NCBI GenBank assembly: GCA_038249055.1
Contig: JBBRWS010000003.1
Span: forward strand, 24,374 to 88,373
DNA length: 64,000 bases
DNA from: Minisyncoccia bacterium
GTDB taxonomy: Bacteria > Patescibacteriota > Minisyncoccia > Phycocordibacterales > UBA9973
Direction of reading: 5' to 3'
The notes beneath the pieces were generated by a model, which saw only the letters and a list, made by a program, of their open reading frames with translations, was not told the DNA's origin and made no database searches. Within the stretch, counting starts at the first letter, position 1, and each line of letters opens with the position of its first letter. This document shows positions 62,883-64,000 of this stretch, in pieces. Both the position numbers and the translations under genes were made by a program.

Positions 62883-64000
62883 TTATAGCTCCATTTTATT
62901 CAAATTAATTTCTGTTTCTTGTATTTGTTTTATTTTATCAAACATATTTACCACAATTTTTTTAAAACTATTAGCAGTATCTGAATCTGGAACAATAATT
63001 TTCATAGTTTTTAAAAATTTGAAATGCCTTGCGTATTCATTATTTTGTAATCCTGAGTTAAGTAAAGATACATAAAAAAGTTCTTGTGGCATTCGTAATA
63101 AGTCATTACTTAATATAAGTTGAGTTCCATCTGCCCCACAAGCAAATGGAAAATTACAATACTTAAAGCATCTTGTATGGTCACCAAATAAAATATATTC
63201 TTTATTATATACAGTAGAATCTTCATTCGTATACCCTCCAATAAACGCCTTTCCTTGATCAATAATCGGGAATTTACCAATATCTAGATATTCGTCTGTT
63301 TTAATTTTCCTTTTCCTCTTGACCTGTGTTAAAAGATTTTTAACTTGTTTAACTTCCCAACCAGTAGGAATATCACCAAATTTTGATTTACTATCAATAA
63401 ATTTAATTTTTTCATTCCCAGGAAATTTAAAATGAACAAACCAGTCTATATAAATTATATTTATCATTTTCTCTATCATTGAAGATGAACTAAATTCAAC
63501 ATTATTCCATTTAATATTTTTGGAAATTTGAGTTAATCTATTTGAAATTTCTATATCAATTTGATTATTTATTAATGTTTGCTTTTCTAAAAATGAATTT
63601 AAATTCATCAATTTTTCTTCAAGTGAAGTTTTGTTAAGAACAATCTCAGAATTATCAATATATTGCCTAGGGTTTAGGGAGTAATCACATTCTTTTATTT
63701 CATCAATACTTACAACTCTGCAACGGCCTCTAATATCAGAATACTTTTTATATCCTTGTTCACAACGATAGCTGCGGACAATTCCCACTATCTCTTGTAT
63801 TTGATCATCAGTCCAAAATTTTTTAACTCTTTCACCAGGAATTGAAGTGAATATATCGCTTACATTTAAAAATAATATTTCTTTTTCTCTTGGAGTTCCT
63901 TTTTTTGATTTATCAAAAAACCAAAGAGTTGTTGAAAGAGTCACATTGATAAACATATTTCCACCAACTACAATTATTACGTCAATTCCTCCAGATTCAA
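62883..64000 (-). CDS. hsdMS: Type I R-M methyltransferase C-terminal region continuing in-frame into a single-TRD specificity (HsdS-like) module; 5' end beyond window
   Basis: In-frame translation upstream of the annotated Met continues ...ESGGIDVIIVVGGN-MFINVTLSTTLWFFDKSKKG...SLNPRQYI (HsdM C-terminal motifs) with no stop, then coiled coil, IDWFVHFKFPG (HsdS conserved region) and IPTGWEVKQVKNL TRD; 8 bp upstream of hsdR. Confidence 0.55.
   Translation of the reverse strand, partial: ESGGIDVIIVVGGNMFINVTLSTTLWFFDKSKKGTPREKEILFLNVSDIFTSIPGERVKKFWTDDQIQEIVGIVRSYRCEQGYKKYSDIRGRCRVVSIDEIKECDYSLNPRQYIDNSEIVLNKTSLEEKLMNLNSFLEKQTLINNQIDIEISNRLTQISKNIKWNNVEFSSSSMIEKMINIIYIDWFVHFKFPGNEKIKFIDSKSKFGDIPTGWEVKQVKNLLTQVKRKRKIKTDEYLDIGKFPIIDQGKAFIGGYTNEDSTVYNKEYILFGDHTRCFKYCNFPFACGADGTQLILSNDLLRMPQELFYVSLLNSGLQNNEYARHFKFLKTMKIIVPDSDTANSFKKIVVNMFDKIKQIQETEINLNKMEL

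What the first reader, a model, noticed from the sequence alone, without database searches (positions are those of the whole stretch)
62883..64000. hsdM and hsdS appear fused in one reading frame, with only a single target-recognition domain
The ORF called from Met 63956 starts inside HsdM-like sequence. Translating in-frame upstream to the window edge gives ...ESGGIDVIIVVGGNMFINVTLSTTLWFFDKSKKGTPREKEILFLNV... with no stop. The HsdM C-terminal signature (...SLNPRQYI) is followed in the same frame by a coiled-coil linker, an HsdS conserved-region motif (IDWFVHFKFPG), one TRD beginning IPTGWEVKQVKNL and a short C-terminal helix. This is a single-chain M-S protein with a half-size, apparently permuted S module. 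Canonical type I systems have separate M and a two-TRD S. Half-S and fused arrangements are uncommon, and predict a symmetric recognition site and an M2S2-like assembly through S-module dimerisation. hsdR follows 8 bp downstream.
Basis: seen in the sequence. Interest (0 to 1): 0.55.

Follow-up and report, generated by a model that had tools for sequence, protein, structure and literature searches.

The report
Natural fused HsdM–half-HsdS gene

Summary
The minus-strand frame at window 62883-64000 is open to the window edge. An independent 17.3-kb public contig matches the window end at 12,134 of 12,134 bases and completes the gene to 739 aa. Its order is HsdM_N, N6_Mtase (motifs DPACGSGG and NPPF), the M tail helix, a 14-aa junction, the last ~20 aa of the HsdS central conserved region, one TRD and one C-terminal helix. 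An intact hsdR starts 8 nt after the stop. The nearest relatives of each half are separate genes: an HsdM 69% identical and two-TRD HsdS proteins 54-59% identical. The S module is colinear with the C-terminal half of HsdS, so it is truncated, not permuted. No close relative carries this junction, so the fusion is unique in its lineage. The architecture itself is known. Engineered "Type IMS"/M½S fusions are active as dimers, and the natural V. vulnificus M1S1/2 methylase is solved (PDB 7EEW). I also found other natural M·S½ genes with hsdR alongside, including a family of at least 48 protein clusters of about 700-745 aa. The most likely mechanism is a (M·S½)2 homodimer plus HsdR that recognises a palindromic bipartite site; this is inferred, not tested. 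It is a new member of a known kind, of modest interest.

The parts
63654..64000 (-). C-terminal part of the HsdM catalytic (N6_Mtase) domain, aa 369-483 of the 739-aa protein. It is cut by the window edge; the first 368 aa lie on contig L001.
   Evidence: Pfam N6_Mtase E 8e-15. 69% identity to the separate 527-aa HsdM P0116 over aa 5-509. Full gene at L001:4050-6269.
63522..63653 (-). HsdM C-terminal tail helix, aa 484-527.
   Evidence: Ten separate HsdM homologues align up to this point and all end here, with the sequence ...KIxEDWKKIL followed by a stop. AF2 predicts a helix at aa 491-534.
63480..63521 (-). M/S junction, aa 528-541 (KNIKWNNVEFSSSS). It resembles neither parent closely. It contains the W532 codon TGG at 63509-63507.
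   Evidence: HsdM homology ends at aa 527. Strong HsdS homology starts at aa 542-543. A weak profile alignment to the first half of the central conserved region has low posterior support. AF2 predicts a kink at aa 535-538.
63417..63479 (-). Remnant of the HsdS central conserved region, aa 542-562 (MIEKMINIIYIDWFVHFKFPG), forming a short lead-in helix before the TRD.
   Evidence: It aligns with the consensus ILEEMAQ.LYTEWFVKFKFPG, which sits at positions about 155-200 of two-TRD HsdS proteins. AF2 predicts a helix at aa 539-556.
62988..63416 (-). The single target-recognition domain (TRD), aa about 563-705, homologous to TRD2 of canonical HsdS.
   Evidence: 54-59% identity to the second TRD of P0001, P0005 and P0011. 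Pfam Methylase_S. AF2 pLDDT is about 90 or higher, and the fold search returns HsdS structures 1YF2, 3OKG, 1YDX, 5YBB, 2Y7C and 7EEW.
62886..62987 (-). C-terminal conserved-region helix, aa 706-739. It lacks the last ~17 profile positions of canonical HsdS (the RDLLLPxLxxG tail).
   Evidence: The profile alignment ends at position 244 of 261. The tail consensus is visible in alignment A4. AF2 predicts a helix at aa 707-738.
62883..62885 (-). TAA stop codon of the fused gene.
59744..62875 (-). hsdR, 1043 aa, intact. It carries the nuclease motif PD...ELK, Walker A GSGKS and the DEAH box.
   Evidence: Pfam HSDR_N, SWI2_SNF2/ResIII, T1R_D3-like and T1RH-like_C. PADLOC REase_I 1e-170. The N-terminal 110 aa are 62% identical to the hsdR of the canonical relative L009. 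Motifs were read from the translation.

Best explanation
[quoted passage not shown] The 739-aa product has this order: HsdM_N, N6-adenine methylase, M tail helix, short junction, TRD, one long conserved-region helix. A separate, intact hsdR follows.

It most likely arose from a canonical hsdM-hsdS-hsdR operon of the same family through loss of TRD1 and of the hsdM stop.

It most likely works like the published M1S1/2 enzymes. Two chains pair through their C-terminal conserved-region helices and M tail helices, rebuilding the four-helix core of an M2S1 methylase. The dimer recognises a palindromic bipartite site (half-site, N spacer, inverted half-site) and methylates an adenine in each half. 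It recruits two HsdR subunits to translocate and cut unmodified DNA.

Shown here: the gene structure, the homologies, intact catalytic motifs, and the recurrence of this architecture next to hsdR in other lineages. Inferred: dimerisation, site symmetry and activity.
For: 1. The frame is open, and a second assembly gives the same sequence.
2. HsdM homology is complete up to where separate HsdMs stop. The motifs DPACGSGG and NPPF are present.
3. The S part corresponds to profile positions 163-351 of 387 and aligns at 54-59% identity to the second half of two-TRD HsdS proteins.
4. The canonical relative L009 has hsdM (69% identical), a 394-aa two-TRD hsdS, and hsdR (62% identical) in the same order.
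5. There is no other hsdS, TRD1 remnant or inverted-repeat cassette in the window or in L001.
6. The AF2 model (pLDDT 84.7) shows tail helix, kink, short helix, TRD and a 32-aa helix. It matches HsdS folds, including the single-chain M1S1/2 structure 7EEW.
7. Published work: the engineered HsdM-half-HsdS fusion dimerises, methylates and restricts with HsdR (PMC6158711); the term 'Type IMS' covers single-TRD fusions (PMC3510504); two V. vulnificus HsdM1HsdS1/2 chains recapitulate M2S1 (PMC12429846); the C-terminal half-S mutant EcoDXXI ΔN recognises GAAY N5 RTTC (PMC3874165).
8. Independent natural loci carry an M·S½ gene with hsdR directly downstream or close by: L004, L006, L010 and L011.
9. 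Both losses are clean: TRD1, and the C-terminal tail that is missing relative to canonical HsdS. They leave only 7 nt before hsdR, which looks more like a compact working gene than like decay (inference).
Against: Nothing functional was tested. No close relative shares this junction in 5.8 billion protein clusters, in the 1.84-billion-representative library or in 185,579 species genomes. Conservation of the fused state therefore cannot be shown for this lineage.

The junction segment and the stretch that would be the first half of the central conserved region are very diverged.

The chain keeps a short pre-TRD helix that the engineered M½Sfus lacks, so the helix packing in a dimer is not guaranteed.

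The C-terminal helix is about 17 profile positions shorter than in homologues. Only a monomer could be modelled.
Confidence: 0.62

Rival explanations
1. The fusion is an inactive deletion derivative. A deletion removed TRD1 and joined hsdM to the rest of hsdS, leaving a locus that no longer binds DNA specifically and is drifting. In type I systems, loss of S function abolishes both restriction and modification, so the deletion would not be lethal.
For: The fusion is a singleton in its lineage: every close relative has separate M and two-TRD S genes. The junction region is strongly diverged. The C-terminal helix is truncated.
Against: All 739 + 1043 codons are open in 28-30% GC DNA, where other frames carry a stop about every 6-37 codons. 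All catalytic motifs are intact. Both deletions are in frame and compact. The same architecture is maintained next to hsdR in other lineages and is active when engineered (PMC6158711).
Confidence: 0.2
2. The protein acts as a monomeric half-enzyme. The M tail helix, the pre-TRD helix and the C-terminal helix would pack within one chain, so that one M·S½ plus one HsdR works like a two-chain version of a type ISP enzyme. It would recognise a short asymmetric site, methylate one strand, and cut only between head-to-head sites.
For: Each chain carries three helices around the TRD rather than the two of the engineered M½Sfus. In P0258 and P0173 the spacing from the NPxxY motif to the TRD is about 85-95 aa, as here. 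P0258-type proteins have only a very short C-terminal helix. Type ISP and IIG enzymes are described as half type I enzymes (PMC3874165).
Against: HsdS-derived half modules tested so far dimerise, including the C-terminal-half mutant EcoDXXI ΔN and the natural V. vulnificus fusion (PMC3874165, PMC12429846). A 32-aa C-terminal conserved-region helix, the dimerisation element, is retained. The pre-TRD helix is only about 18 aa long.
Confidence: 0.1
3. The fusion is an assembly or sequencing artefact. A real stop, frameshift or the TRD1 segment is missing from the consensus, and the organism has ordinary hsdM and hsdS genes.
For: Reads could not be inspected. TGG (W532) is one substitution away from a stop and lies 5 codons after the usual HsdM end. 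The two assemblies may come from the same reads.
Against: Two assemblies agree at 12,134 of 12,134 bases. A restored stop at W532 would still leave only a half-size S with no TRD1 anywhere in 69 kb. There is no repeat at the junction that could collapse an assembly.
Confidence: 0.05

Closest known systems
Vibrio vulnificus YJ016 'minimal intact' type I methyltransferase M1S1/2 (PDB 7EEW; Seo et al. 2022, Int J Biol Macromol 208:381, as cited in PMC12429846)
   Same: It is a natural single polypeptide with an HsdM domain, M tail helix, one TRD and one conserved-region helix, encoded in a type I operon. Two chains recapitulate M2S1. The AF2 model of the S module made here aligns to chain 7EEW_A.
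   Different: It belongs to a different lineage: the only sequence match is a weak one in the methylase core, E 2.6e-5. The protein here is longer, 739 aa against 638 aa for the deposited 7EEW chain. It keeps a remnant of the central conserved region before the TRD, and its nearest relatives are unfused.
Engineered 'Type IMS' EcoKI M-S fusion (PMC3510504) and the S. aureus CC398-1 'M½Sfus' (PMC6158711)
   Same: HsdM is fused in frame to HsdS or half-HsdS, with a separate HsdR. M½Sfus dimerises, methylates a symmetric bipartite site and restricts with HsdR. The authors' definition of Type IMS explicitly includes single-TRD fusions.
   Different: Those are laboratory constructs that use TRD1 plus the central conserved region (M tail, then TRD1, then helix). 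This protein is natural and uses TRD2 plus the C-terminal conserved region, with a lead-in helix.
Half-S truncation mutants EcoDXXI ΔN, EcoDXXI ΔC and EcoR124I Δ50 (reviewed in PMC3874165), and natural single-TRD HsdS in Lactococcus (PMC12418389)
   Same: A single TRD with a conserved-region helix dimerises and gives a palindromic target. EcoDXXI ΔN is the C-terminal half of HsdS, the same half as here.
   Different: In those systems the half-S is a separate subunit and is not fused to HsdM.
Unnamed database family of 700-745-aa 'HsdM' proteins (P0258, P0323 and relatives) and other M·S½ fusions (P0221, P0184, P0173/P0180, P0210, P0361)
   Same: The proteins have HsdM_N, N6_Mtase, about 85-95 aa of helices, a TRD start motif (P.GW) and a C-terminal domain. 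hsdR lies adjacent or nearby, with no separate hsdS (L004, L006, L010, L011).
   Different: They are only about 30-34% identical to this protein. In the P0258 subfamily Pfam does not recognise the C-terminal domain as Methylase_S; only the lead-in and TRD start match, at hhalign probability 90%. Some of these genes (L002, L005, L007) do not have hsdR as the next gene downstream; in L002, which has 6 kb on each side, no hsdR was called, and the other two contigs are short or cut.
Type ISP (LlaGI/LlaBIII) and type IIG/IIB single-chain enzymes
   Same: A γ-class methylase is covalently joined to a single HsdS-like TRD.
   Different: Those enzymes also carry the nuclease, and in type ISP the motor too, in the same chain. 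They recognise asymmetric sites. Here the N-terminus is HsdM_N and R is a separate canonical HsdR.

Membership tests
Canonical type I R-M system (R2M2S1) | HsdR with a PD-(D/E)xK nuclease, an SF2 motor and C-terminal helical domains | tested here: met
   Pfam HSDR_N, SWI2_SNF2/ResIII, T1R_D3-like and T1RH-like_C. PADLOC REase_I 1e-170. Motifs PD...ELK, GSGKS and DEAH are in the translation.
Canonical type I R-M system (R2M2S1) | HsdM: HsdM_N plus a γ-class N6-adenine methylase with motif I and motif IV (NPPF/Y) and a C-terminal tail helix | tested here: met
   Pfam families on L001. The sequence contains DPACGSGG and LANPPFN. 69% identity to HsdM P0116. Tail aligned.
Canonical type I R-M system (R2M2S1) | A separate HsdS subunit with two TRDs | tested here: not met
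   One ORF spans M and S. There is only one TRD, and no other hsdS-like sequence in the window or L001.
Fused M1S1/2 type I methylase ('Type IMS', single TRD) | HsdM and one TRD with a conserved-region helix in one polypeptide, with no intervening stop | tested here: met
Fused M1S1/2 type I methylase ('Type IMS', single TRD) | A separate hsdR in the same operon | tested here: met
   hsdR starts 8 nt after the stop, on the same strand.
Fused M1S1/2 type I methylase ('Type IMS', single TRD) | Homodimerisation to (M1S1/2)2 through conserved-region and M tail helices | not testable with these tools
   Only a monomer could be modelled. The helices needed for dimerisation are present.
Fused M1S1/2 type I methylase ('Type IMS', single TRD) | A palindromic bipartite methylation and restriction target | not testable with these tools
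   This needs methylome data or biochemistry.
Fused M1S1/2 type I methylase ('Type IMS', single TRD) | Common descent with the characterised V. vulnificus enzyme (7EEW) | tested here: not met
   Only a weak match in the methylase core, E 2.6e-5. The nearest relatives are unfused. The fusion appears to be independent.
Circularly permuted HsdS (as in type IB or EcoAI cp variants) | The domain order is rearranged relative to canonical HsdS | tested here: not met
   The S part is colinear with profile positions 163-351 of 387, with aa 156-349 of P0001 and with HMM positions 21-244 of 261.
Type ISP / type IIG / type IIB single-chain R-M-S enzymes | A nuclease, with or without the motor, fused N-terminally to the methylase-TRD module | tested here: not met
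   The N-terminus is HsdM_N. The nuclease and motor are in the separate HsdR.
Phase-variable (shufflon) type I system | Extra hsdS or TRD cassettes flanked by inverted repeats, plus a recombinase acting on them | tested here: not met
   No significant inverted repeats and no extra TRD. The nearby serine recombinase is about 2.3 kb upstream of hsdM, with unrelated ORFs in between.

The most novel reading that the evidence does not exclude
The fusion may act not as a dimeric M2S1 mimic but as a monomeric half-enzyme. One M·S½ chain, with its three helices packed within the chain, would combine with one HsdR to form a natural two-chain equivalent of a type ISP enzyme. It would read a short asymmetric site, methylate one strand and cut only between head-to-head sites. 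That would make it a living intermediate between classical type I and type ISP/IIG systems.
Probability: 0.1. Interest if true: 0.55.

Novelty: new member of a known kind. Interest (0 to 1): 0.25.

Why it matters
The locus is a clean natural example of the "Type IMS" or M1S1/2 arrangement. Its parentage can be read directly, because its nearest relatives still have separate hsdM and two-TRD hsdS genes. It therefore documents one step (loss of TRD1 plus M-S fusion) in the proposed pathway from classical type I enzymes toward simpler single-chain R-M enzymes.

There is also a practical point. The sources that name such proteins call them plain "HsdM" or "DNA methyltransferase". A pipeline that requires a separate hsdS gene would presumably score such a two-gene system as incomplete, although I did not test this. 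The number of natural fusions found here suggests that this under-annotation is systematic. The predicted palindromic specificity could be tested with methylome data.

Tried and rejected
1. Mixed alignments of HsdM and HsdS homologues with the fragment (A2, and offline L-INS-i) overlaid the two unrelated families. The first AF2 run, on a shallow mixed alignment, gave pLDDT 55 and was not used for fold comparison.
2. Phase-variation hypothesis: there are no meaningful inverted repeats in L001:1-9500, and the upstream ORFs are not HsdS.
3. A second hsdS or a TRD1 remnant elsewhere: tblastn with six HsdS proteins found only this locus.
4. Plasmid and phage collections returned only separate M and S genes among the best matches.
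5. The literature term 'hsdMS' is generic for the operon. The P. aeruginosa PAO1 'HsdMSR' system has separate genes.
6. Several 665-775-aa HsdM hits (P0178, P0201, P0206, P0231, P0262, P0246, P0252, P0275, P0305) are not fusions. They carry a long coiled-coil insertion before the NPxRY motif.
7. The exact junction cannot be fixed. HsdM-tail and central-conserved-region alignments overlap weakly at aa 510-541. I could not decide between a single TRD1 deletion and a stop-to-Trp read-through (W532, TGG) into a pre-existing half-hsdS that started at M542.
8. The genome scan of 185,579 species found 14 relatives, none fused.
9. Model coordinates are not exposed, so the helix packing angles in the AF2 model could not be measured.

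Full report
**Observation.** On the minus strand, the frame from 63998 down to the TAA at 62885-62883 is open. The mechanically listed ORF starts at Met 63956, inside methylase sequence. The open frame is far beyond chance. Over the 256 codons after the methylase core, the other five frames hold 7-40 stops. From base composition, the probability of no stop is about 3e-12, and none of 20,000 shuffles stayed open.

The fragment matches Pfam N6_Mtase at its C-terminal end (profile positions 207-307 of 311, E 8e-15). Its last 185 aa match Methylase_S above the curated threshold. It also matches TRD1 of EcoR124 HsdS in the PDB. hsdR (59744-62875, 1043 aa) has every type I R domain and starts 8 nt after the stop.

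**Completing the gene.** An exact look-up of the HsdR protein found one public contig, L001 (Logan assembly of SRR19962012, 17,285 bp). It matches the window end at 12,134 of 12,134 bases and extends 5,150 bases further. The full gene, L001:4050-6269, encodes 739 aa with HsdM_N and N6_Mtase, including DPACGSGG and LANPPFN.

**Anatomy and parentage.**
- Residues 5-509 are 69% identical to a separate 527-aa HsdM, P0116.
- Ten separate HsdM homologues all terminate (...KIxEDWKKIL, then stop) opposite residue 527 of the fusion. The whole M subunit, including its tail helix, is therefore retained.
- Residues 543-736 are 54% identical to residues 156-349 of the 366-aa two-TRD HsdS P0001, and 57-58% identical to P0005 and P0011.
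- A profile built from 108 HsdS second halves aligns to residues 510-737 (E 5e-91) but stops at position 244 of 261. The canonical C-terminal tail (RDLLLPxLxxG...) is therefore absent.
- PADLOC agrees: MTase_I 9e-166, plus Specificity_I 1e-38 on residues 537-727, matching profile positions 163-351 of 387.

The S module is thus colinear with the C-terminal half of HsdS. It is truncated, not permuted.

Between residues 528 and 541 (KNIKWNNVEFSSSS), similarity to either parent is weak. The locus of the closest M relative, L009, is canonical. It carries hsdM, a 394-aa two-TRD hsdS that overlaps the end of hsdM, and an hsdR 62% identical over its first 110 residues. The window locus is that operon minus TRD1, minus the hsdM stop and minus the HsdS tail.

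No second hsdS, TRD1 remnant or inverted-repeat cassette exists in the window or in L001.

**Structure.** A first AF2 run on a shallow mixed alignment was poor (pLDDT 55). A second run covered residues 484-739 with 110 HsdS homologues and gave pLDDT 84.7. It predicts:
- a long helix at 491-534 that runs through the junction;
- a kink at 535-538;
- a short helix at 539-556;
- a confident TRD;
- a 32-residue C-terminal helix at 707-738.

Foldseek against the PDB returns only HsdS-type folds at significant scores: 1YF2, 3OKG, 1YDX, 5YBB, 2Y7C and 7VS4. It also returns 7EEW_A, the 'intact MTase from Vibrio vulnificus YJ016'.

**Is the arrangement known?** Yes, on three counts.
- Roberts et al. fused EcoKI hsdM to hsdS. 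[quoted passage not shown]
- Bower et al. built an HsdM-half-HsdS fusion from a S. aureus system. It dimerised, methylated the predicted symmetric site and restricted when HsdR was supplied (PMC6158711).
- Classical half-S mutants include the C-terminal-half EcoDXXI ΔN, which recognises GAAY N5 RTTC (PMC3874165).

A natural fusion has also been characterised. The S1/2 module fused to HsdM in the V. vulnificus YJ016 type I operon pairs so that two HsdM1HsdS1/2 chains recapitulate M2S1 (PMC12429846, citing Seo et al. 2022). By sequence, that protein is only remotely related to this one (E 2.6e-5 in the methylase core).

**How common is it?** No protein sharing this junction was found in the 5.8-billion-cluster database. 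None was found among 185,579 species genomes either: all 14 relatives there have separate M and two-TRD S genes.

An exhaustive HMMER search with the junction region found other M·S½ fusions among the best 150 hits: P0258, P0221, P0184, P0173/P0180, P0210, P0182 and P0282, and possibly P0166. They are about 30-34% identical to this protein.

Their genomic contexts are:
- L004: hsdR lies 5 nt downstream of the fusion gene.
- L011: hsdR lies about 1 nt downstream.
- L006: an HSDR_N ORF lies downstream.
- L010 (Flavobacteriaceae bacterium MAR_2009_75, an isolate genome): the order is fusion, GmrSD, HsdR, with no hsdS.
- L002, L005 and L007: a PIF1-like helicase, an OLD-family nuclease or a PIN protein is the next gene downstream. 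No hsdR was called in L002, which has 6 kb on each side; L005 and L007 are short or cut.

P0258 belongs to a family with at least 48 clusters (90% identity) of about 700-745 aa aligned end to end. Sibling proteins share the same M domain fused to different C-terminal domains, some recognised as Methylase_S. Unfused 515-aa siblings also exist. The sources that name these proteins call them 'type I restriction enzyme M protein' or a DNA methyltransferase. In the P0258 subfamily, the TRD assignment rests on a partial profile match (probability 90%) and on sequence features, not on Pfam.

**Mechanism.** The best-supported reading has confidence of about 0.6 for the full statement. Two 739-aa chains pair through their C-terminal conserved-region helices and M tail helices. 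Together they form an M2S1-like core that recognises a palindromic bipartite site, methylates both halves and recruits HsdR. The gene structure and homologies are shown. Dimerisation, specificity and activity are inferred from the engineered and V. vulnificus precedents.

The rivals are:
- An inactive deletion derivative (0.2). The fusion is a singleton with a diverged junction. Against this, both genes are fully open in 28-30% GC DNA, all motifs are intact and both deletions are compact.
- A monomeric, type-ISP-like half-enzyme (0.1). Three helices flank the TRD, and the 85-95-aa spacing recurs in independent fusions.
- A sequencing or assembly artefact (0.05). Two assemblies agree. Even a restored stop at W532 would leave only a half-size S.

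**Origin.** Two routes fit the data and could not be separated. One is a single in-frame deletion from the end of hsdM into the central conserved region of hsdS. The other is a stop-to-Trp change at W532 (TGG, 63509-63507), five codons after the usual HsdM end. That change would read through 27 nt into a pre-existing half-hsdS starting at M542 (63479-63477).

**Verdict.** The finding is real, and its core interpretation is right. 'Permuted' is wrong and 'uncommon' is overstated. It is a new, lineage-specific member of an already known kind (natural M1S1/2, or Type IMS). Its interest is modest. It is mainly useful as an evolutionary snapshot and as a reminder that such two-gene type I systems are under-annotated.

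Noticed in passing
window 55270-56391 (-): A 373-aa protein with a C-terminal HNH_2 domain lies 3.3 kb downstream of hsdR (PADLOC HNH 6e-28, REase_II 7e-18). It may be a second restriction-type nuclease in the same island.
   Followed up: partly
window 56413-59738 (-): Seven small ORFs (56-199 aa) with no Pfam family on record lie between hsdR and the HNH gene. 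Several look membrane-embedded from their sequence.
   Followed up: no
L001:18-1730 (-) and L001:1865-3977, just beyond the window end: A 570-aa large serine recombinase and small HTH-like ORFs lie upstream of hsdM. The R-M locus may sit at the edge of an integrated mobile element.
   Followed up: partly
window 27357-28718 and 28953-30335 (-): Two FG-GAP repeat proteins carry a type IX secretion sorting domain (Por_Secre_tail), which suggests a Bacteroidota-like host. The nearest HsdM and HsdS relatives, however, are in candidate-phyla-radiation MAGs (Saccharibacteria, Roizmanbacteria), hinting at horizontal transfer of the R-M genes.
   Followed up: partly
window 9663-13133 (-): A 1156-aa ORF with a TTG start has no Pfam match at E 1e-5.
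   Followed up: no
window 63509-63507 and 63479-63477: A TGG codon (W532) lies five codons after the point where all separate HsdM homologues stop. An in-frame ATG (M542) lies exactly where strong HsdS homology begins. This fits a read-through origin, and may allow internal initiation of a free half-S.
   Followed up: partly
L004:1186-6539, L011:2574-6033, L010:7001-14176: A large, plainly annotated family of 700-745-aa 'HsdM' proteins has a conserved C-terminal TRD-like domain that Pfam does not recognise. hsdR is adjacent and there is no hsdS. L003, L004 and L011 have phage-like neighbours (small ORFs, Peptidase_M15_4). In L010 a GmrSD gene is inserted between M and R.
   Followed up: partly
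L006:115-2339 and L007:262-2352: In two other M·S½ loci the hsdM part is split into two adjacent ORFs (HsdM_N separate from the rest). This could reflect frameshifts, sequencing errors or phase-variable expression.
   Followed up: no
L017:4001-4839: The closest genomic HsdS homologue (Roizmanbacteria MAG, 54% identity) matches in two different frames, which suggests a frameshifted hsdS.
   Followed up: no
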